Below, piece by piece: positions 18,163 to 63,744 of a stretch of 64,000 bases of DNA. Position 1 is the first letter of the stretch, and each line of letters starts with the position of its first letter. The stretch is from an uncultured Candidatus Altimarinota bacterium. Its GTDB lineage: Bacteria; Patescibacteriota; Gracilibacteria; BD1-5; UBA2023. A program made the translations under genes and the position numbers. The DNA lies in NCBI GenBank assembly GCA_936941205.1, contig CAKZJF010000082.1, positions 2,536-66,535 on the forward strand, given 5' to 3'. Under the pieces are notes generated by a model. It saw only the letters and a list, made by a program, of their open reading frames with translations, searched no databases and had not been told where the DNA came from.

Positions 18163-18266
18163 TGTGTGACCAAAGGGATCCATACCCCCGAGAACAAGAC
18201 TTGTGATAGCAAGACGACATTCGAGAGGGGTACACGGAAGAAAAACAAATAGATCAAAATTCATTT

Positions 18267-18350: not shown

Positions 18351-18391
18351 GTAAAATACTCTCTCCTTTTACTTCTTCATCTTGATATGAA

Positions 18392-21204: not shown

Positions 21205-21239
21205 AATGAAAGAGTGAGTGATTTTATATAGAAATTTTA

Positions 21240-32467: not shown

Positions 32468-32667
32468 ACAAAAAAATTATATTAATACCATCATAGCATG
32501 TAATTTTAAAAAAGTCATATATTTGAGATATATATGTTAAAAATACCTATTGATATATATATAAAAGTATTTTTAAATGAATTACGATATTTCCGTAAAT
32601 TCATAGAATTTACTATTCACAAATAGTAGATATACTCCATTTCGTTATTTTCTGGAAGAAAAAAATT

Positions 32668-34955: not shown

Positions 34956-34958
34956 GTT

Positions 34959-36230: not shown

Positions 36231-36231
36231 T

Positions 36232-41582: not shown

Positions 41583-41584
41583 AA

Positions 41585-44801: not shown

Positions 44802-46176
44802 TACAGATCTTATTACTAATATGAGCCAGTGGATCTAATTTATCGTATCCACCATTATATATATTTGCATCCATTCTGCTTCATCCACGACATTTTTCTT
44901 TATGTAAGCAATCACTGCACTCCTTTGGAAGAAAACCATTATTTAACATTTTTTGCACGTATTCACCACTCCAAACTTCACCAATATCATGATCAAAAAT
45001 ACTTCATAAATTTGAATCAAATGCAGACATTATCTGAATATTTCCATCGGTTGTAATGATAGTTTTAACATTATGACTTTCTGATAATTCACCATCTATC
45101 ACAGAACCTGCAACTTCCAAATTTTTCATTACACAAAAAGGGACACTATCAACAATTTTATAATTTACCCCATATTGGTGATTGAGTTTGTATAATTTAG
45201 CAAGGGCAAGAGTAATCATTTCACGACTAATTCACTTGGTTGTTCCTGTCGAGTATAATCGAAAAAAATGCCAATTTTCTAATTGAAATTTATTACAAAC
45301 ATATGCGTATATCTGGCTTAAATGTATTATATTTTTTGGTGTAAGAATCGTAAGAAAATCAAGAGTAATATTTTTAAAATTTACTATCTTTTCAAGTTGG
45401 AAAATTTTTTGATCATATTTGGTTTTGAATGTTTCCAATCCAGTAATTCACTGAATATTATAGGCACCTTGTTTATTAATCGTGTAATAGTCATCATTAT
45501 TAAATTCATGCATAGAGACCATAAGATTGACTGAAAAATTTTCATTTAATCGCTCAAGTGTTTTATCAAATAAGAGAGTTCAATTGGTATTTATGCGTAT
45601 AAATATACCCTTATCACGTATATATTCTAATAAATCAAATAAGAAATTAGCAGAAAAAGGCTCTCAACCTGTAATTATAATATCACGAGTACCTGCTATA
45701 TAAAGTTTATCTATAATATTTTTGTATTCTTGTAATCAGAGTCATTTTCGAAAATTACGATCTTTTAACGGATAGTCATAATCATTGAAACAGTAGTTAC
45801 AAAATAAATTACATTTACTCGTAATAGTTAATACAACTCCAAATGGAATTAATTTTAATTTATTCTTCTCTTGAAAAAAGTGAAAATCATGAATATCTGT
45901 TTGAGATAAAAGAGTAAATACTTCCCTTCCAATATCATCCAAAGAAGAAGTTATTATCCAGTTTTTTATAGTAAATTCAGGAAGTTCCGTGGAAAAAAAA
46001 TCTCTATGTGTAAAATATACGCTTTGATATTGAAAAGTATGAATATCTTGAAATACAACTTCTATACATCCATTTTCTTTCTCAATAATTCTAGAAATCT
46101 TATATCGAGTCAACAATATCCTATCATAAGAGATGGAAGGAAATAATACGAGCGAGTAGAAAATTTTTGTAATCAT
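44794..46176 (-). CDS. radical SAM/SPASM-like maturase-type enzyme with about 105-aa N-terminal extension
   Basis: 460 aa. ORFs 45004-45219, 45232-45438 and 45742-46176 are in one frame. TSKCNLFCNYC, ITGGEPF, PFCV.., and ECSDCLHKEKCRGGS (CX2CX5CX3 with the last Cys replaced by Ser). Confidence 0.8.
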
Positions 46177-46183
46177 GACTAAC

Positions 46184-48253: not shown

Positions 48254-48254
48254 T

Positions 48255-49526
48255 CTATATTAAATTCTTAATAATATGTGCTATTTTTGATGTCTCTCAG
48301 ATTAACGCATTTCGAATATTTTCAGAATGGATATCCTTTCCGAGATCAATCTCCATACCTTCCACAATATGATTCACCAATGTATGGAGAAAATTATACG
48401 ACAAAAGTGGGAGAGATAAGCTTTTGGGTGTGTATGCCCAACTCTTCAGTAGTATAGTAATATTCTTTTGAATACAAGGATTCTTACAATAAGCAATATC
48501 AATACTTATAAGAAACAAAAGAGTGTAAATAAATGTTACAATAAGTGGAGCAGTATTTATTTTATTAAAATCTACTATATATACCTTTGAATCTTTTCAT
48601 AAAAAATGACATATGTCCAAATTAAAATATGTATATGTATGCGTAAGTATTGGATTATTGAATAAATTTTCCACATCTAGAATAGAATCATAATCTCATG
48701 GCATCATTCATAATAATTGATTTATATCATCAATAGTACATGATCGTTGTATAGAAAAAATTGTTTGTAACTTAAAAATTTCAAGTAGAAATTCTTGCTT
48801 ATTTCCATAAAGATATTTGAGTGTTACTGGCTTTGCATCTAAAAAACTAAAGCCAGAGAAATAGTATGGCAAGCCATTGAAGTTTTTCTGAATAATATAG
48901 CATTCTTGTGGTATATTCATGTGTGCCAATTGAAATATACTATATCAATTCATAACATTCACTACATCTGAAAAACGATGAAAACACCCTTTAATAATGT
49001 ATCGTTTCATTTTATATACCCCAATATAATCATTATATAAAAACTTAAACTCTGAATTTGAATCAAATACCCTATAAAGACATTCTGTCAATTGCGTAAA
49101 TCCTTCTTCTCATAAATAAAAGAAGTGCTGTCTTAACTCGCACTCGTAAAAATGCAATATTTTATTTTTCTTTGTAAAATATATACTATTTTCGATTCTC
49201 AACATATCTTCCTGGATTTTTTGCTCTATTCAATTCGGTACATACTGTAAGATATTCATACTAGCAATAGAAATTCATCTTCCAATAAAAAAATTCCTGA
49301 TTACATTCGTACAGATTTCCAAAAGATTCTTATGAATTAATGTATTATATATTAGTAGTAATTCTGTATCTTTTATTTCAAAAATAAGAAGTCATGTATT
49401 GTCTTTTTTTAGAAAAATACAATTGTATGCAAAAAAAATATTTATATTTAAAACTCCGAGTTTCTCATACAATATATAGGAAAGCTCAGAACTCCAGAAT
49501 GTCTCATTATTTAGAAATTGTATCAT
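48255..49526 (-). CDS. hypothetical protein (423 aa), possibly kinase-fold
   Basis: ORFs 48297-48518 and 48708-48929 are in one frame with ATG 49526 and TAG 48255-48257. The weak VYIVDFNK segment is the only hint of function. Confidence 0.6.
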
Positions 49527-50505
49527 TCCCTTTTGAAGTTAATACTCGGTAAATATTTCATCCCATATTACTTCTATTATTTTCATCACTATTCATAATT
49601 TTATAAATTACTACATAATCCCGTAAATATCCAAGTTTTTCAGGTAAACTATATAATAATTTTACTATTGTTTTAATATCATACTTCTTTACTACTTCAT
49701 ACAAGGATGTATTCTGAATATTCCCAATGAGAGTTGCACTTTCAACTTGTTTTATAAGATTATCTCATAAAGTATCATATTGTTTTCCAATAAAAAGTTC
49801 ATCACTCGAATCTTGATAAATATTTAACTTTGAGTCAATTACTAATCAAATCTCAACAGGTATTCAATCAAAATATGAAAATTTATAGATTTTTGCATTC
49901 GCATATGTTTCATTATGAATATATTGTTTATCAACATATATTATAAATTTCTTCAAATTTTTTAGATCATCTTGTTTCCATGGAATAGTTAACATTACCG
50001 GAATAATATTTACCTTTAAAAATCAAAATTCCATAACTCTATCAATCTTTTCATATACTAGATTAATATGAACCGGACTCACAATAAAATTAATCTGAAT
50101 GAGATGAAATGCCTTTTGGAGAAATTTTCATTTCAGGAGTTGTTTATATGTCTCCTCTTTATCAGCATGAAATGTAAGGTAGATTCGTACATTATTTTGA
50201 ATTAAAAAATTCAAAATATCTTCCGTTAATAATATTCAATTCGTACCGATTGAATATTGTAATTTTGAGTTATTTGCATGCTCAATAAAGTATCTTACAT
50301 TTTCAAAGTTTAATAGTGGCTCACCTCAGAAAAAATTAATCGTACAGTCGTCATAATACTCTTCATTTTTATGAAGATATGATATAATCTCATCTATTTT
50401 CTCAGTATTTATATATGTATCATCAAAATGAATAGGACAATACATACATCTTCGATTACAAGCATTTGCCATAATGAGATCAATTACAATCTTTCTAGTA
50501 TTCAT
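49507..50505 (-). CDS. radical SAM protein, core only (paralogue of 39872-40771)
   Basis: 332 aa, frame verified line by line. MANACNRRCMYC and FFGGEPL. No C-terminal Cys cluster. Confidence 0.8.
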
Positions 50506-50531
50506 ACACTTCTATACGTTAATATACAAAA

Positions 50532-51416
50532 TTATTCTCAAGAAACTATCTGGCTCATAAAATCTTGAATTCAGGCAACAAAATCTGAATTATTTCTATC
50601 CCTTATGTCAAGTAGAGATATTTGACCTTGCCAATATCATGTGGGGTTCTTTATCATACCAATAGGCGCAAATATACTATCGTATATTGGAAAAAATCAA
50701 TCTAAATAACGATTACAATGATTTTCATCAGAAAAAGCAAGAATATGAGACTTTCAAAGAGTTTCAGCTAATTTCTTCATGTAATAAAAGGCATACTTAT
50801 GGAGTCTCAACTTTTTTATTCCACCATATTTTTTATAATAGTCATTGGTGTATTGTAAATTTGAGATAAAGAGTGTTTGTTCTCAGATATATAAACTGAA
50901 TCAGAAAATCTTTATTCAATGGTCTCGTATTTCAAAAAATAAAGAATTACTTGAATCATGCCAATCCTTCGCTCATTGAAAAATATGAAATTGCAAACTA
51001 TATCATTTTACAAGAAAGCTACAAGTATATTCTTCCTTAAGAGGAAAATGATTTATATGATATAAAAATATATCATATAAATCAAAGTAGAGTACATTCT
51101 TACTCCTATGCCAATGATCAATTAAAAGAAATATTTCTCAAAAATGAAACGCTTTCATAATCTCTATAATACGATCTTTGTATATTTCATATGTTTGGAG
51201 ATTTTTAAGAATTATTTCCTCTTTTTCAGAAGCATAGTTATCATAATTCAGTACTATCAAAAAAAATCGAAAAAATTCTTTTTCAAATTTATAAATCTCC
51301 GGCATTCAAGAAAAAAAATCCCTACCAGTTACTGTTTTTAAAAAGAGTAATGTTTTCTTAAAATCTGCACTATCCACGGTACTAAGAATTCAGTCTACTA
51401 GTTTCTTATTATCCAT
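50532..51416 (-). CDS. hypothetical protein (294 aa)
   Basis: ATG 51416 and TAA 50532-50534. Frame spot-checked in three places. No family recognised. Confidence 0.6.
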
Positions 51417-52698
51417 ACAAACGATTTCTTTTATAATAATAATCAAGAAATAATTTTGAATATAATTCGAGTTCATCCATCGTAAATCATAAATCAGTCC
51501 ATCGCTTTAGTAAATAGATTTTCCGTTTTTGAAATATAGCATCATCTATTAAGTAAAGATTCAAGATATCATTTTCCAAATCTGTTGAAATATTCATTCT
51601 TATATTATCATTTTCTCGTACAAATAATGAATCATAGTACTGAGTAAAAGTATTAAATTTAGCACTATTCTCTTGAGTAAAAGCAAATATATTGAATGGA
51701 ATTCATCTACGAAGATTATCACTCATAAAAGAGAGATAATTATCAATCTCACTTAAAGAATATCCGTTGAGTATTTTTTTATTCTGCTTCCAGCTACCAT
51801 AGCTTACATCTTCATATGCAATAACTCATGGTATATATGACGTAGCTGAAAGTCCTATTCATACTATAGCTGTATTATTAGTTTTTCTTTCCTCTATCTC
51901 CCTTCTATGGGTATCAAACAGTCATAAAAATTTTCCATCAATATATGTATCTACTATTTTAACTGCTTTTTTTGAAGTGCTAATATAATACTTGCAAAGA
52001 TCAAGAAATTTATCTTTTCAATATTTTCCAAGAAAAATATTCGCAAATCCTGTTTTAATAGAAATATCCCATCGATTAATCTCCAGATTTACATCTAAAC
52101 CATGATTTTTAATCTTTTGTCATGCAGCGTAAATATATTCTAGATCATTTATGAGATCATCTAGGGTCATAGATGGAAGATTATACATAAGATCAAATGA
52201 TATCTTCTTAAATCCACACTCAATAGCCTGATTAATAGCCATATCTAATTTCGTTTTACTAAACTTTCTATTATTATATCTATTCACCTTTTCACTTGTA
52301 GTTTGCACTCCAAACATAATATCTGTAACACCAAAATCCTTCAAAATATGAAGCGTATTTGAAGTTAAGTAAAATGGATGAATCTCTACTTGCCAACTGT
52401 AACCTTCAGATAAAGAAAAATTTTCAAGTATTTTTGTGGACATCTCCCTAATCTCCTCATCAGATGCAAGATTAAAAGTTCCTCATCCAAAATATATTGA
52501 ATCAAGTGGTTTTTTAATAACAGTTGAATATTTTTCCAATTCTTGAAGCATGTAGTCTCTATATATCTTTGTATCGGTTTCATTCACCCGAAGAAGCGCC
52601 TCACAATCACAATAATTACAGCGAGTATCACAGTATATACTATGGATATAAAGTTGCAAGAATCATTCCTTCTCATTATATAAATTCCATTTATTCAT
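51409..52698 (-). CDS. HemN-like radical SAM protein (coproporphyrinogen dehydrogenase / class C methylase fold)
   Basis: 429 aa, frame verified line by line. LYIHSIYCDTRCNYC, IYFGGGTF and GVTDIMFGVQT. An in-frame upstream ATG at 52824 is an alternative start. Confidence 0.75.
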
Positions 52699-52701
52699 TA
52701 C

Positions 52702-52732
52702 ATTCTTCTCTGAAACTTTTTCAGAGAAGAAT
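52702..52732 (-). promoter_or_regulatory. perfect 14-bp hairpin 3 nt upstream of the HemN-like ATG
   Basis: attcttctctgaaa (52702-52715) pairs with tttcagagaagaat (52719-52732) across a 3-nt loop. No T-tract follows. Confidence 0.5.
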
Positions 52733-52833
52733 ACATTCATAGGATAACGAAAGGCAAAACCATCCTCTTTAAAAAAGAGAATAAGAAATAGTATTTTCTC
52801 AATTTCTTCAAATAATTTCTTCATAAATATATA

Positions 52834-53715
52834 CTATTTGATCATACGATCCAAATAAGTTATAATATATTCAAAATGACTATATAGTATTTTAACCTCA
52901 CCATTATCATCATTATAAATTGCGTTTCCATCTCTCATAGTAGTAGAAATTTCCTTAAACTTGCTATTGTATAATTCAATATTTTTTGAATCTCAAAGAG
53001 TTGTATATATTCTTATCAATTCTCGATATGCCATAAATTTATTTATATAATATCCATCTCCAGTAGCCTCAAGATTTCATAAAGATTGAAGTGTGGCAAT
53101 GGATTTATCACTATTCCCCATTCTATCATACGAAATTGCCATAAGTAATAATGATGGAGAATACACTTTACCATTTTTATTTGTTTCAAATAATTTTATT
53201 GCTTCACTGTATTTTTTATTCTTAAATGCAACTAGTCATTTCAATCGATCCAAGACTGGATATTTAATAATATACTTCTCAATAAGCTTATCAGCTTCTG
53301 TATAATCATTCAAAAAGATATATGCAATTATCACATTTCAAATTGTCGTAGAAAAATTTACAAAATTAGTCTCTGCTCAACTTGAATGTTTATTCCAATA
53401 TATAAGAACTTCATCATATTTTCATAAGTCATTCAATACTTGTATGAGATTGGTAAGATTTCGAGGACTTTGTCATTTTGTTATTTCATAATTTTGTTTA
53501 ATATATTGCAGTGCCTTATCAGAATTGCTATCAATTTGACGTTGCTCTTTGCTAATTTTTTCTTCTGAGAGAATTTCCTTCTTAATGAGTATTCATGAAT
53601 TTACTACAACACCACTTGATGTAGTATTAACACTTCAAGGAGAAGATGGTAAAAAATTACATGAAGTCAAAAAACATACAGAGAGGAGTATTCAGATATT
53701 TCGTATGCTATACAT
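52834..53715 (-). CDS. TPR-like repeat lipoprotein
   Basis: 293 aa. MYSIRNIGILLSVCFLTSC lipobox signal. Helical repeats with the TPR-like spacing W/Y..A...Y/F. Confidence 0.65.
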
Positions 53716-53797
53716 ATATGTGTAATTAAAAAAATAACGATTATATACAATAATAATATTACTTCTTTCGAAAAATACAATCTTTTACTAAAAATAC

Positions 53798-53825
53798 TTG
53801 ATATAAATATTTTTATTCTTATATC
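53798..53825 (+). promoter_or_regulatory. candidate promoter of tRNA-Cys
   Basis: ttgata (53798-53803), 16-nt spacer, tatatc (53820-53825), 9 nt before the tRNA 5' end. Confidence 0.4.
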
Positions 53826-53834
53826 TTTACATAT

Positions 53835-53909
53835 GGTGCCATGGCAGAGTGGTTATGCGGGAGTTTGCAAAGCTCCATACATCGGTTCGATTCCGTTTCG
53901 GCACCTCCA
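53835..53909 (+). tRNA. tRNA-Cys (anticodon GCA)
   Basis: Closely parallels E. coli tRNA-Cys. D loop agtggtta, anticodon stem ggagt/gctcc with loop ttGCAaa, T loop ttcgatt, discriminator T plus CCA. One irregular position at the T-stem/acceptor junction. Confidence 0.8.
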
Positions 53910-53916
53910 TTCATCC

Positions 53917-55059
53917 TTATCGAAATCGAGATACAAAATCATACTTGGTTTCAAAATAAGCAATAATATATTTATTTAAATGTTTAGATAATGATTCAAT
54001 TAAAAGGAATGGAATATGAATAGAATCTTCATATAATTTTTCATTGAATTTTGCCTCATTCACATCATATCACTCACGAAGACAAAACATTTTCTCAATA
54101 TTAATTTCATCTCAAAAATTCTCCTTTTTTTTCGACTCAAACCTTGTAATAATCTGATGTGAAAATTTCTCCATCTTAGTGAGATATAATCCATCTTCAA
54201 TACTTCAAAAGATATGATCTTCTTGAGTACTTCACTGGCCAGCTAGGAGAGTACACATATAAAGGAGTCCATTGGATCATAAATATAACCCTTTTCATAA
54301 AGAACAATTCGAGAGATGTTCTTTAGAAAATGATTCTGCAAGATATTTCTCTATAATTTCTTCTATTGGATCAATCTGAACGCGATATCGCAGTAAATTT
54401 TGTATATAGTAGTTAAATATTTTAATATATTCTAACTTGAAAATATCTGCAGCCTTCCTGTTAATGAATCCTTTTTTGGCAATAAGCTGGCAAATTGCAA
54501 TGCTTTTTGTTCAAATTTCTTCAACAAAATATTTCACTAAATCAGAAAGGTACACTACATTTTCTTTTGTTACCACAATTGAAACTCGTGGAGCTACTCA
54601 ATAGATAGCCTTATATTTTTCAATATTATTTCCAATAATTTCATATAATTTATAATCCTTTATAGTTTTATGTACCCTATAGTGGTCATATGTATTATAA
54701 AGAAATGAATCTATAGAAAACTGAAGTTCTATAGCATGATCATGAAAAAATTTATACATGTCTTTCGTATAAATGGTTCCATTTGTATTAATGGTTCCTA
54801 TTTCAATATTTTTGGTTGGATACTCTCATCTCATCTTTTCAACATGCAAAATAAGCTGTTGAATAAAGGCAAAATTTAATAAAGGTTCTCATCATAAAAC
54901 AGAAATAACAATTTCATCCGTTTGCTCAATCACCTGAGTCACTAATTCTGCTATTTTATCAGACCATATCAGATTCATTTCTATTTTATCAACAAAACAA
55001 TACGTACAATCTAAATTGCATTCTCGATTTACAAATATAGTAAATGAATTGATTTTCAT
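53917..55059 (-). CDS. radical SAM/SPASM protein (anaerobic sulfatase-maturase-like)
   Basis: 380 aa, every line checked in frame. VNRECNLDCTYCF, LGGEPLL and the SPASM-type segment CSLGKGLYLGSNGLLYMC. Stop lies 8 nt from the tRNA-Cys 3' end. Confidence 0.8.
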
Positions 55060-55143
55060 AAAAAATTATAATGCTAAATGAGTAAATGATTCTGAGTGTA
55101 CAATATTTCATTAAGTACAACTATGGAAAACAAAGTATTCCTC

Positions 55144-56127
55144 TTATTTATCAAAAAATTGTTCACAAACATTGCAACTATAGCAGTCTTTTGGACATTT
55201 TCTGAGTTTAGCAAAAAAAGAGAGTCGAGTTAATTTATCATTATCAATGTAAGGGATATTTTGATATGGAAAATCAATAATATCTTTTAAATCTCCATGA
55301 TAAGTTCAAGCTATATATGCATCTAACATTTTTCTAATTCGCTCAGTTGATTCTGGTCTTGTATCCAATTTAAATACATCAACAATATCTTGATAATGAA
55401 TAAGATCTTCTGGTCGAATAAACGGTGCTCGAAAAATTAATTTTCGATTCTTGTGAACCATTGGCACACAAGAATAATCTTCAATTAAATTATACTTTCC
55501 ATTGTGAATTCTCTCTTCTGTATTGTAATCCACCCGATGTGCAGCAATATTAAAATGTGTATGTCTATATGGGCAGTTAGAAAAACATCCTTCATTTAAT
55601 AGCATTTGAATTGGAAGTCATGTTCGATCTTTTATATTTTTTATCAATTCAATATCTCGATTTATATCTCGATCAATCGTTAAAATATCAATTCATAAAT
55701 CTTTAAAATATATTGCCTGTTCTACGGATTTTAAATAACAATTAATTGACGAATAAATAATAATCTTAGGAAGTGCTTTTCGAAAAAAGGGAGCATATAA
55801 CATGTTAGTCAGTGTGATTGAGGTTAATCATCGCATATGAAGCTTTTTTATGAATTTTATAAGCTTCAACATATGAAATTTATCTCAGGTATTTTCACCC
55901 TCACAGGTTGCATTCATTATCAAGATGGTATCTATCCCATATTTATTACATGTATCAATTACAGAATATAATGCAACCTCTTCATAATCATTCATCTGTA
56001 TTTCATCTCTTCATGAATTTCCAAGAGAATATGGTAATGGTAAATACACTGAACTAATATGATCCTTATAATCATCTATGAGGGCAAAAAAATCGGGCTT
56101 CTGATTAAATCAAATGGAGAATTTCAT
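55144..56127 (-). CDS. U32-family-like protein (TIM-barrel with Cys motifs)
   Basis: 327 aa. ORF 55305-55605 is in frame. Layout ..IYSSINC..LGIDILTIDRDIN..IQMLLNEGCFSNCPYRH parallels the U32 E.F.HGALC....G.C region but is diverged. C-terminal CPKDCYSCNVC. Confidence 0.45.
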
Positions 56128-56136: not shown

Positions 56137-57252
56137 CTAAATAGTAATATCAATATTATACTTATGCTGCAGTTTCTTTAAAAGAATAATTTTTTCTTTT
56201 ACATCAGATGATTCAAAATCATTTCCATATATATTATTAATATCTGAATATTTGAAATAGAAAGTTTTGTCGTAGAATTGTAATAGTTTTAAAGTATCAA
56301 CAAATTCTTCTAATGTTTCTTGAAAATAATTAAAAATTATATGATTACAAAGCTCAATCTTTGAATTTCTTCGCATATCTAATAAATTCTCCATGAGCCT
56401 ATCTATACTATATCAACGCTTCATAAGAGATAATATACGTGGTGAAGTATGTTGAATAGGAAGAAGCATATATGGTATTCTACCATTAAATATATATTTC
56501 TTTAAAGACGGGTAATATTTTAGAAAGAAAACAGGATTAATATTTGTAATATATATACGAATTGATTCATGTATCGAAAAAATCTTTTCAACCAAATCAA
56601 CAAAAGTAGTCCCCATATCTATTCCATAACTTCCACAATCATCAGAAAGTAAATAAAAATCTGTTTTTCATTGTTGAAAATCTTCCTTTACCTGATCCAT
56701 TATATCCTGAATAGCAAGACTCTTGGTGGCTCATTTAATTTTCTTAATATTACAGTAAGAACAATTGAACTCACATCATGTAGATATCTCAATGAAAGAT
56801 TTACTTTCAAAATTACCAAGCAACTCACCATATTGCTTAAAATCATTATCAGTATCTAGGATGCTAATCTTGTTTTTAAAAGAATAACTCTCAACTTTTT
56901 TTAGATTTATCTTATACTCAAAATAACTCTCAACGGCAACATGGTTTTTCGAATCTATATAATATAATTCATTTCCATATCGTTCCCGAATACTATTACT
57001 AATACATCCAATCAGTATAATTCTTTTATTTTGTTGAAGGTAATAATCAATCTTTTGAAATGTTTCATCTAAAAAACCACTATTCACTCAGCATAAATCA
57101 AGTAAAATTAATTGGCATGAAGCAAAATCTTTCACCAATATATAATTATTAATTACAAGAAAATTATAAATCTTTACAAATTTATTATCCGAAAGAATAC
57201 AGTCATTTGAAATACGGTCAATAAATATCTTTTCTGAGTTTGTGAATACCAT
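56137..57252 (-). CDS. MiaB-fold radical SAM protein (paralogue 1 of 4)
   Basis: 371 aa. ORFs 56137-56394, 56413-56616 and 56776-57087 are in one frame. ISTGCEFNCSYC and LPIQHTSPRILSLMKRGY (MiaB/RimO-like PxQSGS..L..M.R.Y). Confidence 0.8.
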
Positions 57253-57294
57253 GTGTTTGGTGGAAATGATAGTTTTAAAAAGATTTATATATGT

Positions 57295-57322
57295 ATTATA
57301 GGAAGTTATTGAATGAGTTCAA
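57295..57322 (-). promoter_or_regulatory. near-consensus sigma70-type promoter for 56137-57252
   Basis: On the minus strand, TTGAAC (57322-57317), 16-nt spacer, TATAAT (57300-57295), 43 nt upstream of ATG 57252. Confidence 0.55.
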
Positions 57323-57362
57323 TATTATTTGTTCATATACTTATATAAGCACTGTCATTTTA

Positions 57363-57390
57363 TTGCATAAGTCTTGAGTCTGTATATAGT
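57363..57390 (+). promoter_or_regulatory. candidate promoter for 57431-58684
   Basis: TTGCAT (57363-57368), 16-nt spacer, TATAGT (57385-57390), 40 nt upstream of ATG 57431. Confidence 0.45.
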
Positions 57391-57430
57391 AAAAATATAA
57401 CAATCCTCTTTATTTATATAAAAAAATCAA

Positions 57431-58684
57431 ATGAAGAAAATATTTATCTGATTTGGAACATGACCAGAGCAAATTATATTCCACCAAGCAACTCTCCTAT
57501 ATAATTTTTTTCTTATAAATGGATATACCCTTGTGAAAGAAGCAAAACTGGCTGATGTCATTTTTTTATGCTGATATCCATTTAATAATCATGAAGAAAC
57601 AAGAGTTCTGCTTACCTTAAATTACTATCTAAAAAAGTATCCAAATACCGATATTATTGCCTTTTGACACCTCGCTGATATGATTCAGGGAATGAACGAA
57701 TTCTGAAAACTGAAAGTAATATGATTATATCAATCAAAGAGAATAAATACCTTATTTCCACATACCATACCAATAGAAGAAATACACGTAGAAAATTATC
57801 GATTCTTTATACCTCTAAAAATTGATAATTTATATATTTGAGATTTTTGATATGATATCTCTATTAAGACAAACTATATACTTCGAGAAGATGAACTCAA
57901 TATATCAATCGATACACTCAGAAATTGAGGAGTATCAATCAGTTGAATAGAAGAGTATGAGGAAAAATATTGTTATCTGGAAGATAAGACCAATAACATT
58001 TATATACAAACCTCATATGGCTGTGCATTTAAATGTTCATATTGTGTTATTAATAGTGTATGATGAGTTATTAGTAGGCCAATGGATGAGATTCTAAAGC
58101 AAATACAAAAATGAATTGAAGCAGGAAAAAAATCCGTTTATATTGTTGATCAAGATAGTGGAAGTTATGGTATTGATATATGACTTGATTTTGCTGATTT
58201 ACTCAACAAAATTAATAAAATACCTTGAGATTTTGATATACGTATTTATTATTTTGAACCGTCAAGATTTTTAAAGCTCTATAAAAAAATAAATGTTGAT
58301 ATTCTCACAAGAAGGTTAGCATTTCTGAATATTCCCATACAAACCACCTCACAGAGAATACTTACTCTTATGAATCGGAATTATGATATCACTGAAGTAT
58401 TAAATATTATTCGGAAACTTCGCAGAATTAACATGAGGATTCGACTTGAAACCATTGTAATGTATGGGTTCCCTACGGAAACATATGATGAATTTATGGA
58501 ATATCCAAAAATACTTCCCTACTTTGATCATATAGAATTCTTACGATATTCGGAAAGGCCATGAACAAAATCAGTAAAATTATGAGGAAAAATACTATAT
58601 GCTGATATGGAAAAACGATTTTCTATCATGTGAAAACTGAAAGAAAAATTTCCAACCAAAATAGATTATTGTATGGAAATATAA
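57431..58684 (+). CDS. MiaB-fold radical SAM protein (paralogue 2 of 4, only plus-strand gene of the island)
   Basis: 417 aa. ORF 58370-58564 is in frame. TSYGCAFKCSYC and IPIQTTSQRILTLMNRNY. Confidence 0.8.
58339..58408. repeat. 70-nt patch, 69/70 identical to the reverse complement of 59004-59073
   Basis: acaaaccacctcacagagaatacttactcttatgaatcggaattatgatatcactgaAgtattaaatatt, with a single A/G difference. Confidence 0.9.
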
Positions 58685-58694
58685 ATAGAAGACA

Positions 58695-60002
58695 CTAATA
58701 ACAACTTGCCAGTATCTTTTTCCGTTCTCTTGGACTTCATATAACTGGATCGATCTTATCACCAAATTTTTGCTTCATTTTTAGAATTACCAAAGATTTC
58801 CTGAGAATTTCTTCATGGGAATTTTTTTGCATGTTATAAGTTTTTGTTCACTTTTTATCTGCGTAACATAGAAAATCAGTACAATCAAAATATTTTAATA
58901 ATCGAAAATAATCAGAAAACTCATCATATGTTTCAGTAGGAAAGCCATAAATAACTATAGATCAAAGCAAGATACTAGTATTATACATCTTTATTTTCTT
59001 ACAAATATTTAATACCTCAGTGATATCATAATTCCGATTCATAAGAGTAAGTATTCTCTGTGAGGTGGTTTGTAATGTAATTCGAGCATATGATACTTTA
59101 TTTTCCCAAAATTCTGGAGCTATCCTATGAAAATTCTCTACAAGATGCTTGGGTTCAAGATAATAGAATTTTATATGAAAATCTCAAGGTATTTCATTGA
59201 TTTTATTTATGAGAAAAGCAAAATCAAGTCATATATCAATACCATAACTTCCAACATCTTCATCAATAATGATAATATTTTTTGCACCTATAGATACGGC
59301 ATGTTGAATATCGGAAATAATATCATCGATTGGAAAACTCTTTGTATATCAAGAAACCCGCTTAATTGCACAATAGGAACAATCAAATCCACATCCCCGT
59401 GTAGTTTCTATATAAAAGTTATCAATTGAATCTTCCATATAATTATAATCTCATGGATATTCTTCTATGGTATTATTTTGATATGTTCCATCAATGATTG
59501 AATCAATAGTTATTGAGAGATCATATTCTGATATTTCATAATTTGTTTCCAGTTTCAAATTACTTCATAATGCATTATGAAGTAAATCTCACAAAGAAAC
59601 CTCTTCGAGTTTTAATGGAATAAAGAAACGTATTCTTCATACATGAATATCTTTTATGGAAATAGTACCATGAAAAATGGTATCAAATTTTTCGTATTCA
59701 GAATATGAAATATACATGAGTCATGGTATGCGTTTTATACCATATATCATATTTGGTGCAGATCCGAACACAATAATCTTTTTATCTTTATAGGTATTCA
59801 GATAATAATAGAGAGAAAGAAGGACAAGTTTTTCTTCATAATTATCAAATGGATATGCATTCAATAAAATATAGTCTGCATCTTTTGCATTTTTTACTAA
59901 TTTGTATCCATTTTGAATCAGAAATTCATATACAATAGTTGATTGAAATCACACTTGACTATGCTCAGCTCAACTTGCACTTCAAATAAATATAGTAGAC
60001 AT
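58695..60002 (-). CDS. MiaB-fold radical SAM protein (paralogue 3 of 4)
   Basis: 435 aa, frame spot-checked. TTRGCGFDCSYC and ITLQTTSQRILTLMNRNY. Convergent with 57431-58684, with stops 10 nt apart. Confidence 0.8.
59004..59073. repeat. inverted partner of the 58339-58408 patch
   Basis: Reverse complement matches 58339-58408 at 69/70 positions. Confidence 0.9.
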
Positions 60003-60023
60003 AATATGAATTTTAATAAATAA

Positions 60024-61325
60024 CTATATATCTCTCTTTTGAAAAATATGAATTCCTTGGTGTAAGGTTTCATTTTTATCAAATATTTTTGTAAGAAAAT
60101 GTTCCTTCATTTTCCAAAGAAAGACCAATCTTCGAATCATTTCTTCTTTTGGTATTTTGCCCATAAAGAATGGAGATTGTGTTCATTTTCGATCCGAGTA
60201 ATACCAAAACCATACTTCATCGAAATAATTAATAACCTGAAAATATGTTTTAAATTCATCGAATGTTTCTGAAGGAAATCAATATATAAACTGGGTTGTT
60301 ATTATAATATTTGGATTGATACGTTTAATCTCCTGTGTAATACTAAGAACATTTGGTATATTATAACTCCTATTCATGAGCTTTAAAATTCTCTGTGACA
60401 TCGTTTGTAGCGGAACACAAAAATTAATAATCCTATTCCATATGGCTGGGTCAATTGTATGAAATAATTTCTCTAGCCTCCCTGGTTCAAAATAAAATAT
60501 TTTCAAGCGAAAATTTCATTCTATTGCATTAATTTCATTAAGGAGTTGAGCAAAGTTTTTTCAGATATCCAATCCATAACTTGCACTATCTTCATCAATA
60601 AAATGAAAGATAGTATATCAAAGTCATAATCATCGTTTTATTTTTCTTAAAATAATCTCTGTTGGGATGCTTTGAACAAATCCAGCTATACTTCTAATAT
60701 CACAATACGAACAATGTCATCCACATCACGTACATATCTCTAATGGATACTCACCTGTTTTATCAAGTAAATAGTTATATTTCTCAGTATTATATTCGGA
60801 AATTCGATCAATTGGATAATTTCATGCTTGTATAGCATCAAAATCTATAGATAAATCCTCCTGTGAGAATATATATCTTGATTCAATATTCGCATCAAGA
60901 TATCAATATTTATCAATATTTAAGCTTTCGATATTTAATGGAATAAAGAAACGGAGAGTATCAACCTCAATATTATGTATAGAAATACTTCGCATAAAAA
61001 GTGCATCAAATTTATCTTTTTCTTTTAATCATATCATTTGAATTCTGGAAATCCCTTGCAAATATGGCATCATCGCAGGAATTGATCCTATAAGAACAAT
61101 ATTTGCATTCGGATAGCGAACTAAATAATAATTAATAGTTAATAAATTTATTTTCTCTTCAAACTCTTCGAAAGGATATCCATTCAATACTATAATATCA
61201 GCATTGATTGGTGATGAAATCAATGTATATCCATTTTGTTCAAAAAAATTATATACAACAGTGCTTTGATAAGCACAAACTTTATGTTCACTTCAACTTC
61301 AACTTCCAATAAAAACATTTTGCAT
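60024..61325 (-). CDS. MiaB-fold radical SAM protein (paralogue 4 of 4)
   Basis: 433 aa. ORFs 60279-60506 and 61029-61223 are in frame. CTGCGGHCSYC and VPLQTMSQRILKLMNRSY. Confidence 0.8.
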
Positions 61326-61334: not shown

Positions 61335-62081
61335 TTAATCACATCATCCATCAAGAAATAAAGTTGTACCATTTACAAATGAGGAATCATCACTTGCCAA
61401 AAATATAATTGACTTAGCAACCTCTGTAATCTTTCAGAATCTTCAAAGATATATTGTATTGTCATCATCCTCTGAAGAATCTCATGTTGGATTTTCATAA
61501 TCTCTGTTATCAATATTACCAGGGGCAATAGCATTTATTCGAATATTTGGTCAAGCAATTTTTGCAAATTCTTTTGTAAGTACAATGATTCAAGCCTTGG
61601 AAATATCATAATCAATAAGGTCTGATGAAAAATGTTTTATTCCCTGAAGCGATGAAAGATTAATAATTTTTCATCAAATAATTTGTCTATCCAGCATTCG
61701 TCTTAAAACATACCGTGTACACAAAAATGTACCAAGAAGATTGGTATCTATGGTTTTTTTCCATTGTTCAACGGTTCTTTCAAAAATGGGAACTTCCTGA
61801 GAAAATCATGCATTATTTATACAAATATCTATTTTTCCAAATTGTTCTATTACTCAATCTACCATGGATATAACATCTCATTCTATGGAAACATCACATT
61901 TCACAGCTATAGCATGTCATCATAATCGAGATATCGTATCCACCACAACAAATGCTTCTTTCTCGGAAGTAAGATAGGTAATAACTACCTGTGCTCCTTC
62001 TTTTCAAAAATATAAAGCTGTTGCCCTTCATATTCAACGAGCACCACCAGTAATCACGACTATTTTCCCTTGAAATTGCAT
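61335..62081 (-). CDS. short-chain dehydrogenase/reductase (FabG-like)
   Basis: 248 aa. VITGGARGIGRATA (two Gly are TGA), NNAG, YDISK (YxxxK) and IAPG. Confidence 0.85.
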
Positions 62082-62090
62082 ATAAAACTA

Positions 62091-62756
62091 TTAATGAATA
62101 CTTCGATACAACATAAAAGATTCCGCATATGGAAGTCAACTTTCCATTCATCGAATACGAGCCAATGTTTCCAATCATTCGATATTTCGTGCATATGGAA
62201 AAGATTGATTTTCTGATATATAAAGCTGAAATAATTGCTTCTTATAATCAAGAAAATCACCAATATCTTCATAATGATTTGGGAGAAATTGATCCTTTCC
62301 TATAGATAATTCTGTCGAAGAAAGAATTTCAAAGAGATAAATTTTCTTAATAAAATGAAACCGTTCAATCGGCCGAAGAGCAGTAATTACAGAACGAGCT
62401 GTTAAAGCATGATCTATATTCAAATCATTATAAAAGTGTGTATATATAACACTTGGCTCTATCTTTTGAATTACCTTTTCAATCGATTGTATAATGGTAA
62501 GAAGTGGAATGGTATCGAAACCAGTATCTGGAAAAAATTCTTGAAAAACTTCATCAATTCATAGTTGTGCTACTATCCTTTGAAAACATTCCAATCGAAT
62601 ATTTTTTTTCTCTTCTTTTCTTGCATTTCATGGTGAAGACAAGAGCAAGATATTAACACTATAGCCCTGTTGTATTAATTTACAAATAGTTCCACCCATT
62701 CATAAAACTTCATCATCGGGATGAGCTATTATTATGAGAATCTTCTTATCATTCAT
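62091..62756 (-). CDS. PIG-L / LmbE-family deacetylase
   Basis: 221 aa. ILIIIAHPDDEVLGMGGT signature. ORF 62175-62423 is in frame. Confidence 0.8.
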
Positions 62757-63744
62757 ATTTTCATTCAAGTAAATGAACTAAATTTCACTCAAGAACCTTT
62801 CGTGATTGTTCTGTCATAGGTGTATGATTCTCATAGGTTCAGAATCACTCTGACATATCTACTTTTGGGAAATTTCAAGTATGTCGTCCAAGTATATCAA
62901 GCAAAAAATATGAGTCATTTAAAAAAAGTATATCACTCGATTCATTCCTTGAAATAAGTATTTCATCCTGTTTTTCTCAATTTCTCATGCCTATTTGTAG
63001 TATTTCTTCATTTCACCTTCAGTAAAGACCAATCATGCATTCGGTTAAATCTTTTAAAGAAATCACTCTTCATCTATGAATAAATATCTCTCAACCAATA
63101 CTTGTACAAAAAGAGAAGTAAATCAAATCAATAATCTCATTGATAGTAATATAAAATCGTCTGGTATTGGGATTTGTGATAGTAAGGGGTCGATGATTCA
63201 TGATTTGATGAAACAATACTTGTACCACACTTCCATTACTTCATAAAACATTACCGGCACGAAGAACTGAAAATATTGTTTCTTTTTGGTTTACATTTGC
63301 ATGAATACATAATTGTTCTCATATTGCCTTCGTATTACCGTAGAGATTATATGGATCAACTGCTTTATCTGTAGAAACATAGAGCACCTTTTTTACTTTA
63401 TTAAAAATAGCGGCATCGATAAGATTTTGAGTACCCTGGACATTTATTGATATGGCCTCTTCTGGGTTTTCCTGACATTTTGAAATATGCTTCAATGCCG
63501 CTAAATGAATAACATAATCTACTCAATGGAGCACCTTTTTAAGAAGTTCTCAATTTCTTATATCTCAGAGGACAAATTGAATCTTTGAAGAATGCATTAT
63601 TCGTTCCATTTGCACTTGTCTATCTTCCGAACGAGACAATACAATTACTTTCTTTATCTGATATTTTTCAAGTAAAGATTGTACGATAGCCTGTCACCAA
63701 GTTCCTGTTCATCAAGTAATGAGAATAGTTGTATTATGAAACAT
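62746..63744 (-). CDS. NDP-sugar 4,6-dehydratase of the PseB/FlaA1/CapD type
   Basis: 332 aa. ILITGGTGTWG, GDIRN, HLAALKH..ENPEEAISINVQGTQN, STDKAVDPYNLYGNTK and RAGNVLGSNGSV. Confidence 0.8.

What the first reader, a model, noticed from the sequence alone, without database searches (positions are those of the whole stretch)
56137..61325. Four MiaB-fold radical SAM paralogues without the methylthiotransferase N-terminal Cys triad
Seen: four 371-435-aa proteins share an N-terminal flavodoxin-like segment (IG.G.G.E....Q.T..Y.F....GY.L......AD.I.LN.YPF), a CxxxCSYC motif, and (P)(I/L)Q(T/H)(T/M)S(Q/P)RIL.LM(N/K)R.Y, which matches the MiaB/RimO-type motif. In three of them the N-terminal domain has zero or one Cys, so the auxiliary cluster that defines methylthiotransferases cannot be formed. 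One paralogue (57431-58684) is inverted relative to the rest and sits behind a divergent promoter pair (57295-57390). Inference: a subfamily of MiaB-fold enzymes with non-MTTase chemistry, expanded locally.
Basis: partly seen in the sequence, partly recalled or inferred. Interest (0 to 1): 0.65.

Follow-up and report, generated by a model that had tools for sequence, protein, structure and literature searches.

The report
MiaB-like radical SAM paralogues lacking auxiliary-cluster cysteines
A freshwater Gracilibacteria genome (where TGA codes for glycine) carries four neighbouring copies of a MiaB/RimO-type radical SAM enzyme that all lack the RNA-binding tail, and three have also lost the three cysteines that normally hold the sulfur-donating iron-sulfur cluster, so they probably do different chemistry on an unknown non-RNA substrate.

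Summary
The four genes (371, 417, 435, 433 aa) are paralogues with an MTTase-type N-domain and radical SAM core. None has a TRAM domain. g56137 keeps the canonical auxiliary-cluster triad (C18-X35-C54-X28-C83). The other three, and all 12 aligned orthologues, have fixed E/H, Y and S(H) there, versus C/C/C in 179 of 189 standard-code homologues.

They form a 100%-bootstrap, Gracilibacteria-only subclade: 2 representatives among 1.84 billion proteins. It sits inside a large, uncurated TRAM-less MTTase-like family that is separate from MiaB/RimO/MtaB/e-MtaB and lies in biosynthetic multi-rSAM clusters. Here the genes sit in a conserved ~30-kb cluster with about 15 rSAM genes.

Caveats:
- Each triad-less type keeps three other cysteines outside the rSAM motif, conserved where orthologues allow a test. 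A relocated auxiliary cluster is not excluded.
- The B12 idea is not supported.
- The "divergent promoter pair" is not above AT-rich background.
- Substrate and chemistry remain inferred.

Verdict: a new variant of a known kind, of moderate interest.

The parts
56137..57252 (-). g56137, 371 aa. TRAM-less MTTase-like radical SAM protein that keeps the canonical UPF0004 Cys triad (C18, C54, C83; CX35CX28C) and the rSAM motif C160-x3-C164-x2-C167. It also carries the DDCGSYG Cys (C206).
   Evidence: Triad columns read CCC. TIGR00089 gives 136.9 bits against a 251-bit cutoff, and the alignment ends at profile position 339/429. Orthologues are 54-57% identical in L001, L002 and L004.
57253..57430 (.). 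178-bp intergenic gap between the divergently oriented g56137 and g57431. It holds one sigma-70-like site on the minus strand (57322-57295).
   Evidence: The match is 10/12, but the region as a whole has fewer promoter-like sites than shuffles (37 vs 46.2), so this is not evidence of function. X1 contig 56616-57501 spans the gap.
57431..58684 (+). g57431, 417 aa. Triad-less, TRAM-less paralogue and the only one on the + strand. rSAM motif C198/C202/C205, triad columns E/Y/H, and three other Cys (C47, C181, C414). It is a lineage-specific extra copy, sister to the 435-type.
   Evidence: (417+435 grouping 77% bootstrap). The only close relative is P0011, on the same 19.7-kb contig as P0001.
58695..60002 (-). 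g58695, 435 aa. Triad-less, TRAM-less paralogue ('435-type'). rSAM motif C204/C208/C211, no Cys in the N-domain, and conserved C374, C379 and C434. It has a ~50-60 aa insertion between the N-domain and the barrel.
   Evidence: The AF2 model of P0001 (the same protein with W at TGA positions) has pLDDT 90.7 and pTM 0.90. Foldseek best hits are RimO 4jc0 at 5e-20, MtaB 9a6d and MiaB 7mj*.
60024..61325 (-). g60024, 433 aa. Triad-less, TRAM-less paralogue ('433-type'). It has an extended motif C198-x2-C201-x3-C205-x2-C208, plus conserved C17 and C303.
   Evidence: The AF2 model of P0092 has pLDDT 92.1. Orthologues are about 64% identical in L001, L002 and L004.
61335..63744 (-). Conserved upstream neighbours: an SDR (61335-62081), a PIG-L family deacetylase (62091-62756) and a PseB/CapD-like NAD-dependent sugar dehydratase (62746-63744).
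   Evidence: Pfam: adh_short_C2 1.7e-56, PIG-L 4.6e-23, Polysacc_synt_2 6.3e-77. The same order occurs in L001; PIG-L and SDR are also found in L002 and L004.
34017..56127 (-). The rest of the low-GC multi-rSAM cluster. It holds about 11 further rSAM genes (HxsC-like, HxsC4-like, PapB-like, NirJ2-like SPASM, HemN-like), a NodU-type carbamoyltransferase (46184-48253), a PPDK_N fragment (41585-42340), a weakly U32-like protein (55144-56127), a TPR lipoprotein and several proteins with no family.
   Evidence: All rSAM hits fall far below curated cutoffs. Orthologues of many of these genes lie next to the MTTase-like genes in L001, L002 and L004 and in the standard-code locus L031.
32668..34020 (+). 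Membrane protein with a type IV leader peptidase (A24) domain at the cluster boundary.
   Evidence: Pfam PF01478, 8.1e-08. A homologue sits at the end of the L031 cluster.

Best explanation
The four genes are a Gracilibacteria-specific expansion of an uncharacterised, TRAM-less branch of the methylthiotransferase (MiaB/RimO/MtaB) radical SAM family. They are embedded in a conserved ~30-kb multi-radical-SAM tailoring cluster that acts on a non-RNA substrate, either a small molecule, a glycan or lipid precursor, or a peptide.

g56137 keeps everything needed for two-cluster sulfur insertion (UPF0004 triad plus CX3CX2C). It most likely thiolates or methylthiolates the cluster's substrate in the way MiaB and RimO do.

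The 433-, 435- and 417-aa paralogues keep the SAM-cleaving [4Fe-4S] site and the SAM-binding PxQ..S.RIL.LM.R.Y motif. In them the canonical auxiliary-cluster ligands are replaced by fixed E/H, Y and S residues, and a ~50-60 aa insertion has been added. They therefore most likely generate the 5'-deoxyadenosyl radical and perform sulfur-independent H-abstraction chemistry at other positions of the same scaffold, for example epimerisation, dehydration, dehydrogenation or C-C bond formation.

Shown: fold, family placement, loss of the triad and of TRAM, clade structure and conserved synteny. Inferred: catalytic competence, the type of chemistry and the substrate class.
For: - Code 25 reading and ORFs.
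- MTTase homology over the full length, including the N-domain: TIGR01579 aligns residues 15-422, 19-411 and 22-407 at E about 1e-36, and TIGR00089 gives E 1e-40 to 1e-50, always below the cutoff and ending near profile position 360/429.
- Solved-structure relatives are RimO and MiaB.
- AF2 models have pLDDT 90.7 and 92.1, with RimO, MtaB and MiaB as best Foldseek matches.
- Triad columns are CCC in g56137 and in 179/189 standard-code homologues, but E/H, Y, S(H) in the three paralogues and all 12 orthologues aligned.
- The replacement residues are fixed: E13 14/14, H14 13/14, Y50-P51-F52 14/14, S81 13/14. The rSAM Cys and the Q311/S314/R316/M321/R323 motif are invariant.
- No TRAM: there are about 58 fewer residues after the MNR motif than in canonical MTTases.
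- In the NJ tree, all TRAM-less proteins form a clade at 100%, and the triad-less clade is also 100%.
- The exhaustive HMMER search finds only 2 representatives of the triad-less clade, then a drop from 627 to 294 bits to a large family of 350-400 aa triad-bearing proteins.
- Only Gracilibacteria MAGs carry the triad-less type.
- The synteny PIG-L/SDR/433/435/371/HemN-like/carbamoyltransferase/SPASM is conserved in L001, L002 and L004.
- The wider family lies in biosynthetic contexts with a carrier protein, adenylation enzyme, aminotransferase, B12-rSAM, carbamoyltransferase, or seven rSAM genes in a row.
Against: - No biochemical or expression data exist, and no RNA runs hold the locus.
- Each triad-less type retains three other non-motif Cys, conserved in the 433- and 435-types, which could ligate a relocated auxiliary cluster. 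In that case sulfur chemistry might be retained.
- The substrate is unknown. No precursor-peptide ORF fits in the window's cluster, and the sugar genes could serve an unrelated neighbouring pathway.
- The tree is a distance (NJ) tree with no class-B outgroup.
Confidence: 0.6

Rival explanations
1. The auxiliary cluster is relocated. The three paralogues still bind a second Fe-S cluster, using new cysteine sets, and still carry out sulfur insertion or methylthiolation, or use the cluster for substrate binding or electron transfer as SPASM/twitch enzymes do. The sets would be C17/C198/C303 in the 433-type, C374/C379/C434 in the 435-type, and C47/C181/C414 in the 417-aa copy.
For: - Every non-motif Cys of the 433-type is conserved (9/9, 9/9, 8/9), and three of the four non-motif Cys in the 435-type are conserved (8/8, 7/8, 7/8).
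- In the 433-type model, C198 sits in the cluster-binding loop right after barrel strand 192-196 and C303 sits at the C-terminal end of strand 299-303. That is the active-site end of the barrel.
- C303 aligns with the conserved His of the canonical H(I/L)PxQSGS motif.
Against: - The three sets lie at different positions in each paralogue type, so no common new site exists.
- C374 and C379 lie five residues apart in one beta-strand and so would face opposite sides. This is inference.
- At 60-65% identity, conservation of three residues is only mildly significant.
- Conservation cannot be judged for the 417-aa copy, which has only two near-identical sequences.
- The canonical site is replaced by fixed polar residues rather than by Cys.
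Confidence: 0.22
2. They are cobalamin-dependent (class B-like) enzymes. The flavodoxin-like N-domain, freed of its Fe-S cluster, would bind cobalamin, and the enzymes would methylate unactivated carbons.
For: - Weak similarity to B12-rSAM families: TIGR04013 and TIGR04014 at E 1e-11 to 1e-13.
- Foldseek matches to MgmA (7e-14) and to OxsB, TsrM and TokK (1e-9 to 1e-11).
- B12-rSAM genes neighbour relatives in L029 and L033.
Against: - The B12-family alignments cover only the rSAM core, starting at about residue 117-195, while MTTase models also align the N-domain.
- There is no PF02310 hit at E <= 0.01, whereas UPF0004 gives weak hits for two of the four proteins.
- MTTase structural matches are 6-10 orders of magnitude better.
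- AprD4, which has a B12-like domain without cobalamin, scores as well as true B12 enzymes.
- From my own knowledge, CPR bacteria generally lack cobalamin biosynthesis.
Confidence: 0.06
3. They are non-catalytic partner subunits. The triad-less paralogues would be scaffolds or substrate-presenting subunits for the triad-bearing g56137, or decaying duplicates.
For: - The tight, order-conserved triplet 433/435/371 is compatible with a complex.
- In L004, a second triad-bearing copy occupies the slot that the 435-type holds in L001 and L002. This shows the slots are interchangeable to some degree.
Against: - The CX3CX2C cysteines and the SAM-motif residues are invariant across 14 family members at 40-70% identity.
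- There are no frameshifts or stops other than TGA=Gly.
- The replaced site is itself under purifying selection.
- Confident, compact AF2 models.
Confidence: 0.07
4. They are ordinary tRNA or ribosomal-protein methylthiotransferases (the default automatic annotation 'MiaB/RimO family'), merely divergent because of the fast-evolving CPR genome.
For: The best family hit is TIGR00089. One relative of the wider family carries that automatic name.
Against: - Scores are 80-114 bits below the cutoff, and far below every equivalog cutoff.
- There is no TRAM domain and no triad in three of four.
- They form a separate clade at 100% bootstrap from MiaB, RimO, MtaB and CDKAL1-like proteins.
- There are four copies inside a biosynthetic cluster.
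Confidence: 0.03

Closest known systems
RimO (30S ribosomal protein S12 methylthiotransferase; T. maritima structure 4jc0)
   Same: It is the best sequence and structure match: phmmer 7.5e-28 over the rSAM core, and Foldseek 5.2e-20 with TM 0.62 over 429 columns. It shares the flavodoxin-like N-domain, the partial TIM-barrel rSAM core, CX3CX2C, the (Q/E/D)D..SYG.D motif and the PxQ..S..IL..M.R.Y motif.
   Different: [quoted passage not shown] All four window proteins lack TRAM and three lack the triad. They carry a 50-60 aa insertion and a helical C-terminal extension instead. Identity is only 18-25%.
MiaB / MtaB / e-MtaB (CDKAL1-like) tRNA methylthiotransferases
   Same: Same three-motif core. 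NCBIfam equivalog models align at E 1e-30 to 1e-40. MiaB 7mjv-7mjz and the MtaB model 9a6d are top Foldseek hits.
   Different: Scores are 100-140 bits against equivalog cutoffs of 315-357. They fall in a separate clade. They have no TRAM domain, so no evident RNA-binding module, and their genomic context is biosynthetic rather than translational.
The uncharacterised TRAM-less MTTase-like family (e.g. P0093-P0240; Thermoplasmatales L005/L007, Marinamargulisbacteria L006, L029, L031, L033)
   Same: This is the immediate parent family. Its members are about 350-400 aa with UPF0004 plus rSAM domains and no TRAM. They share motifs such as LADDCGSYG.DIG.DFA.LLN and P.Q(S/T).S.RILKLMNR.Y and occur in multi-rSAM or natural-product-like clusters, often as tandem pairs. 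g56137 is an ordinary member.
   Different: Members of the parent family keep the Cys triad (CCC in 179/189). The three Gracilibacteria paralogues do not, and they carry an extra insertion. The parent family has no curated model (209-236 bits against a 251-bit cutoff), and I found no published function.
AprD4 (radical SAM 1,2-diol dehydratase, 6fd2) and class B B12-rSAM enzymes (MgmA 9ccb, OxsB, TsrM, TokK)
   Same: Same two-domain layout, with an N-terminal Rossmann/flavodoxin-like domain followed by an rSAM barrel (Foldseek E 7e-14 to 1e-9). AprD4 is a precedent for such an N-domain carrying no cofactor in an enzyme that acts on an aminosugar. This is an analogy from my own knowledge.
   Different: The similarity is much weaker than to MTTases. 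The N-domain of the window proteins is homologous to UPF0004 and not to PF02310.
His-Xaa-Ser (HXS) system rSAM maturases HxsB/HxsC
   Same: Several neighbouring small rSAM genes have HxsC or HxsC4 as their best NCBIfam hit. The related locus L001 carries an HxsD-domain gene.
   Different: All scores are far below cutoffs (46-121 bits against 268-500). The window has no HxsA or HxsD. The MTTase-like genes are not part of the described HXS antiphage system (PMC13128918, listed; abstract only).

Membership tests
Radical SAM methylthiotransferases (MiaB/RimO/MtaB; TIGR00089) | N-terminal UPF0004 (MTTase) domain fold | tested here: met
   MTTase equivalog models align from residue about 15-22 onward. 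Pfam UPF0004 hits are weak and sub-threshold for g56137 and g58695 (E 0.0015 and 0.0037). The AF2 models show a beta-alpha-beta flavodoxin-like N-domain, and full-length Foldseek matches go to RimO, MtaB and MiaB.
Radical SAM methylthiotransferases (MiaB/RimO/MtaB; TIGR00089) | CysX35-36CysX32-33Cys triad ligating the auxiliary [4Fe-4S] cluster (PMC5352715) | tested here: not met
   Met only by g56137 (C18-X35-C54-X28-C83). g57431, g58695 and g60024 read E/Y/H, H/Y/S and H/Y/S at the triad columns, where 179/189 homologues read CCC.
Radical SAM methylthiotransferases (MiaB/RimO/MtaB; TIGR00089) | Central radical SAM domain with CX3CX2C | tested here: met
   PF04055 E 4.6e-13 to 6.6e-20, above the gathering score. 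CxxxCSYC is present in all four and invariant in relatives.
Radical SAM methylthiotransferases (MiaB/RimO/MtaB; TIGR00089) | C-terminal TRAM domain (~60 aa) | tested here: not met
   No PF01938 or PF18693 hit. TIGR00089 alignments end at about profile position 339-366 of 429. The proteins have 93-115 residues after the MNR motif against a median of 165 in canonical MTTases. The C-terminus is helical in the models.
Radical SAM methylthiotransferases (MiaB/RimO/MtaB; TIGR00089) | Score above the curated family cutoff | tested here: not met
   136.9, 169.5, 171.3 and 167.7 bits against a cutoff of 251.
Radical SAM methylthiotransferases (MiaB/RimO/MtaB; TIGR00089) | Methylthiolation activity (SAH plus 5'-dA produced, -SCH3 transferred) | not testable with these tools
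   This needs enzyme assays.
Class B (cobalamin-binding) radical SAM enzymes | N-terminal B12-binding domain (PF02310) | tested here: not met
   No PF02310 hit at E <= 0.01 for any of the four. B12-family NCBIfam models align only to the rSAM core, with the earliest start at residue 117.
Class B (cobalamin-binding) radical SAM enzymes | Cobalamin binding | not testable with these tools
   There is no sequence motif diagnostic for class B, so this needs reconstitution.
TRAM-less MTTase-like family (uncurated; defined here) | Groups with the TRAM-less proteins to the exclusion of MiaB, RimO, MtaB and e-MtaB | tested here: met
   NJ bootstrap 100% for the all-TRAM-less clade. In the profile search, the hits after the triad-less clade that I fetched (about 40 of 150) are TRAM-less proteins, mostly 350-430 aa, apart from a few fusion proteins.
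TRAM-less MTTase-like family (uncurated; defined here) | Location in multi-enzyme biosynthetic or multi-rSAM clusters | tested here: met
   Seen in the window cluster, in L001, L002 and L004, and in L006, L029, L031 and L033.
His-Xaa-Ser (HXS) system | HxsA repeat peptide, HxsB, HxsC and HxsD above family cutoffs | tested here: not met
   Neighbouring rSAM genes score 46-121 bits against cutoffs of 268-500. No HxsD or HxsA was found in the window. The MTTase-like proteins are not components of HXS.

The most novel reading that the evidence does not exclude
The three paralogues are founders of a new catalytic class built on the MTTase scaffold. The site that held the sulfur-donating [4Fe-4S] cluster would have been rebuilt either into a different centre (the fixed Glu/His/Tyr/Ser constellation) or into paralogue-specific three-Cys sites. 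Together with about 12 other divergent radical SAM enzymes, they would assemble an unprecedented, heavily radical-tailored metabolite or surface molecule. A genome-reduced CPR episymbiont keeps this cluster at the cost of roughly 30 kb of a genome that is probably only about 1 Mb (the related Gracilibacteria MAG has a 971-kb contig), possibly for interaction with its host.
Probability: 0.2. Interest if true: 0.75.

Novelty: new variant of a known kind. Interest (0 to 1): 0.5.

Why it matters
MTTases are defined by a two-cluster mechanism in which the N-terminal [4Fe-4S] cluster carries the sulfur that is methylated and inserted. This is a natural clade that keeps the whole scaffold but has replaced all three ligands with fixed non-Cys residues, next to a sister paralogue that keeps them. 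It offers a ready-made comparison for asking what the MTTase fold can do without its canonical auxiliary cluster.

The work also exposes a large family of TRAM-less MTTase-like proteins (at least 150 representatives at 50% identity) with no curated model. This family sits in natural-product-like clusters. That suggests methylthiolation or related radical chemistry on small molecules, for which I found no published example.

The host context adds interest. Gracilibacteria are uncultivated, genome-reduced, code-25 organisms. About 15 radical SAM genes in one cluster is an unusual investment for them, and standard (table 11 or table 4) annotation breaks or mistranslates these genes.

There is also a practical consequence. 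Public protein databases hold these proteins with Trp at every TGA-encoded Gly, including the Gly next to the cluster-binding Cys.

Tried and rejected
1. Table 11 ORF calling gave only fragments. Code 4 (TGA=Trp) was rejected in favour of code 25 on column statistics.
I used the database copies P0001 and P0092, which have W at the TGA positions.
3. The divergent promoter pair is not above background, and no terminator lies between the convergent genes.
4. tRNA-Gly(UCA) as direct proof of the code: not present in the window, which has only tRNA-Leu(CAA) and tRNA-Cys(GCA).
5. B12-binding hypothesis: no domain hit.
6. HXS or another anti-phage defence assignment for the cluster: only generic rSAM (pVip) similarity, and HxsC-like scores are far below cutoffs.
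7. RiPP precursor search by inspection: the gaps in the window's cluster (32468-32667, 53716-53916, 55060-55143, 57253-57430) leave no room for an obvious precursor ORF. This was not pursued further.
8. Literature searches for triad-less or TRAM-less MTTase-like enzymes, and for Gracilibacteria rSAM clusters, found nothing relevant.
9. RNA-seq evidence: no runs were found.
10. Misassembly of the inverted copy is rejected, because independent contigs span both junctions.
11. The first bootstrap run timed out and was redone with numpy distances.
12. Cys-Cys distances in the models could not be measured, because coordinates are not exposed.

Full report
**1. The observation**

With the standard bacterial code the region 56137-61325 contains only ORF fragments of 85-103 aa. 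In-frame stops fall exactly where radical SAM proteins have glycine, for example ST*CEFNCSYC and MKR*YS. All of these stops are TGA. Reading TGA as sense raises the summed ORF length of the window from 2,260 to 26,229 aa.

- 56137-57252 (-), 371 aa
- 57431-58684 (+), 417 aa
- 58695-60002 (-), 435 aa
- 60024-61325 (-), 433 aa

At the TGA columns of these proteins, 189 homologues from standard-code organisms carry Gly 39.6% of the time, against a background of 5.6%. Trp is not among the eight most frequent residues there. The code is therefore 25 (TGA=Gly) and not 4.

Reference-genome hits to the same proteins are Candidatus Gracilibacteria MAGs, and the locus occurs in freshwater and lake metagenomes. 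By inspection, the upstream half of the window encodes ordinary chromosomal genes, including Mfd, GatA, HisS and a release factor with an RF1-type motif. This is a cellular chromosome.

The CxxxCSYC motif and the P(I/L)Q..S.RIL.LM.R.Y motif are literally present in all four proteins. The long N-terminal string in the finding is a loose consensus that matches none of them exactly. N-domain Cys counts are 4, 1, 0 and 1.

The inverted copy is not an assembly artefact. Independent contigs span both of its junctions. The "divergent promoter pair" is not distinguishable from AT-rich background, with 37 promoter-like sites found against 46 +/- 7 expected.

**2. What the proteins are**

Pfam sees only Radical_SAM, plus sub-threshold UPF0004 hits in two of the four. 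NCBIfam places all four nearest the MiaB/RimO subfamily model TIGR00089, at E 1e-40 to 1e-50. The scores are 137-171 bits against a cutoff of 251, and the alignments stop near profile position 360 of 429, which means before the TRAM domain. MtaB, RimO and MiaB equivalog models align across the N-domain as well. B12-rSAM models align only to the rSAM core, at E 1e-11 to 1e-13.

The nearest solved structures by sequence are RimO 4jc0 and MiaB 7mjv. AlphaFold2 models of the 435-type and 433-type are confident, with pLDDT 90.7 and 92.1. The best Foldseek matches are RimO, MtaB and MiaB at E about 5e-20 to 4e-18. MgmA, OxsB, TsrM, AprD4 and TokK follow at 7e-14 to 1e-8.

The literature defines an MTTase by three features (PMC5352715; PMC10702137):
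- a UPF0004 domain with a CX35-36CX32-33C motif that binds the auxiliary cluster
- an RS domain with CX3CX2C
- a TRAM domain of about 60 aa

**3. The triad and TRAM**

In a 24-sequence alignment, canonical MTTases read C/C/C at the GC..N, NTC and GC positions. g56137 also reads C/C/C (C18, C54, C83; spacing X35 and X28). g57431, g58695, g60024 and all 12 orthologues aligned read E or H, then Y, then S or H. Across 189 standard-code homologues the pattern is CCC in 179.

The replacement residues are fixed within the triad-less family: E13 14/14, H14 13/14, Y50-P51-F52 14/14, G80 14/14 and S81 13/14. The site has been rebuilt under selection and has not simply decayed.

All four proteins lack TRAM. 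They have 93-115 residues after the MNR motif, against a median of 165 in canonical MTTases. The triad-less proteins also carry an insertion of about 50-60 aa between the N-domain and the barrel.

**4.

Each triad-less type has three other cysteines outside the rSAM motif:
- The 433-type has C17 (9/9), C198 (9/9, giving CxxCxxxCxxC) and C303 (8/9). C303 aligns with the His of the canonical H(I/L)PxQSGS motif.
- The 435-type has C374 (8/8), C379 (7/8) and C434 (7/8).
- The 417-aa copy has C47, C181 and C414. Their conservation cannot be assessed, because only two near-identical sequences exist.

In the 433-type model, C198 lies in the cluster-binding loop and C303 lies at the C-terminal end of a barrel strand. 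I could not measure distances because coordinates are not exposed. "No auxiliary cluster" is therefore established only for the canonical site.

**5. Family structure and distribution**

A word-indexed search of 5.8 billion proteins found only about 15 close relatives. All are unnamed and from metagenomes, all have Radical_SAM as their only Pfam hit, and all are translated with W at TGA positions.

An exhaustive HMMER search of 1.84 billion representatives found two representatives of the triad-less clade, at 708 and 627 bits. Scores then drop to 294 bits and below for a large family. The members I examined are mostly about 350-430 aa, all lack TRAM, and carry the Cys triad in all but a few cases. 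A few are fused to a C-terminal region that weakly resembles B12-rSAM families, or are tandem-fused. This wider family scores 209-236 bits on TIGR00089, just under the cutoff. It has no dedicated model, and only one member carries an automatic name.

In an NJ tree of 38 sequences, the bootstrap supports are as follows:
- all TRAM-less proteins together, separate from MiaB, RimO, MtaB and CDKAL1-like proteins: 100%
- the triad-less clade: 100%
- the 433-, 435- and 371-types: 100% each
- the 417-aa copy grouping with the 435-type: 77%

**6. Genomic context**

The four genes lie in a low-GC block (27% against 35% upstream) on the minus strand, from about 34 kb to the end of the window. This block contains about 11 further divergent rSAM genes, whose best hits are HxsC-like, HxsC4-like, PapB-like, NirJ2-like SPASM and HemN-like, all far below cutoffs. 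It also contains:
- a NodU-type carbamoyltransferase
- a PPDK_N fragment
- a weakly U32-like protein
- an SDR, a PIG-L deacetylase and a PseB/CapD-like dehydratase
- an A24-peptidase-domain membrane protein at the boundary

The order PIG-L / SDR / 433 / 435 / 371 / ... / HemN-like / rSAM / carbamoyltransferase / SPASM is conserved in L001 and L002. L001 also has the PseB-like gene upstream and the U32-like gene after the 371-type. The Gracilibacteria MAG locus L004 keeps the same order, except that it has 433/373/371: a second triad-bearing copy sits where the 435-type is.

The inverted 417-aa copy exists only in this organism and one near-identical relative.

Outside Gracilibacteria:
- The standard-code locus L031 shares homologues of five window gene families. 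It has seven rSAM genes in a row but only one MTTase-like gene, which is triad-bearing.
- L029 pairs the family with a B12-rSAM, an aminotransferase, a carrier protein, an adenylating enzyme and a carbamoyltransferase.
- Thermoplasmatales loci have tandem triad-bearing pairs.

The family context is therefore biosynthetic and not translational. The expansion with triad loss is specific to Gracilibacteria.

**7. Mechanism (inferred)**

g56137 has everything required for MiaB/RimO-type two-cluster sulfur insertion. It probably thiolates or methylthiolates a non-RNA substrate.

The three triad-less paralogues retain the SAM-cleaving site and the SAM motifs, but not the canonical sulfur-carrying cluster. 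They most likely use the 5'-deoxyadenosyl radical for sulfur-independent tailoring at other positions of the same scaffold.

The rivals, in order of likelihood, are a relocated auxiliary cluster, non-catalytic partner subunits, a cobalamin-dependent enzyme, and an ordinary but divergent MTTase. No expression data exist, PADLOC shows nothing specific, and I found no prior description in the searchable literature.

**8. Verdict**

This is a new, lineage-restricted variant of a known enzyme kind, nested in a sizeable uncharacterised family and in an unusually rSAM-rich cluster of a CPR bacterium. It is of moderate interest. The decisive experiments are Fe/S stoichiometry, SAM-product analysis and Cys-variant spectroscopy of the recoded proteins.

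Noticed in passing
window 1-64000: The whole window uses TGA as a Gly codon (code 25). Public protein databases hold these proteins and their relatives with Trp at every TGA position, including the Gly next to the first rSAM Cys (e.g. P0002 'RWCGFNCSYC'). This distorts profiles and structure predictions.
   Followed up: yes
window 34017-61325: About 15 radical SAM genes lie in about 27 kb, nearly all on the minus strand, at 27% GC against 35% upstream. The cluster core is conserved in other Gracilibacteria (L001, L002, L004) and partly in a standard-code organism (L031). Its product is unknown.
   Followed up: partly
window 60024-61325 (residues 198-208): The 433-type has an extended CxxCxxxCxxC motif. 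The extra Cys lies three residues before the rSAM motif and is conserved 9/9, together with conserved C17 and C303.
   Followed up: partly
window 58695-60002 (residues 374, 379, 434): The 435-type has a conserved FDCxDFLCY motif in the last barrel strand and a conserved C-terminal 'CY' ending. The role of these residues is unknown.
   Followed up: partly
window 53835-53909 (+): A tRNA-Cys(GCA) gene sits inside the minus-strand rSAM cluster, on the opposite strand, in the gap between the TPR lipoprotein gene and a PapB-like rSAM gene.
   Followed up: no
window 41585-44801 (-): A 251-aa PPDK_N (ATP-binding) fragment is followed by two paralogous proteins of 408 and 415 aa with no family hit. By eye, their C-termini (…SHYKIISKELG…FTGFIKRIG) resemble the phospho-His swivel domain of PEP-utilising enzymes. 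This could be a split PEP-synthase-like or PigC-like enzyme.
   Followed up: no
window 55144-56127 (-): A 327-aa protein with only a weak Peptidase_U32 hit (E 0.0057) is the most conserved protein of the cluster, at 80.6% identity to its L001 orthologue. It carries Cys-rich motifs (GCFSNCPY, CPKDCYSCNVC) and lies directly downstream of the triad-bearing g56137.
   Followed up: no
L004 10001-13580: In this Gracilibacteria MAG the triplet is 433 / 373 / 371. Two triad-bearing copies are present and there is no 435-type, so the paralogue set is evolutionarily plastic.
   Followed up: partly
P0105, P0110, P0115, P0120, P0123: Some members of the wider TRAM-less family are fused to a long C-terminal extension (630-769 aa in total) that gives only weak, sub-threshold hits to B12-rSAM families such as HpnJ. 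Others are head-to-tail fused duplicates (1019 and 1245 aa). This echoes the tandem gene pairs seen in Thermoplasmatales.
   Followed up: no
window 1955-6838, 20173-21546, 27251-32467 (-): Very large (1627 and 1738 aa) and smaller Cys-rich, Thr/Ser/Gly-rich predicted surface proteins carry repeated 'YAWQC.GS…NCTARYQTG' modules. They may be adhesins of an episymbiont.
   Followed up: no
window 16863-18068 (-) and 18155-19324 (+): A release factor with an RF1-type P-x-T motif (IPNTE) and GGQ is present, which fits a genome in which UGA is not a stop. The ORF called at 18155 overlaps tRNA-Leu(CAA) at 18267-18350, so the true start of the CorA-like gene is probably further downstream.
   Followed up: no
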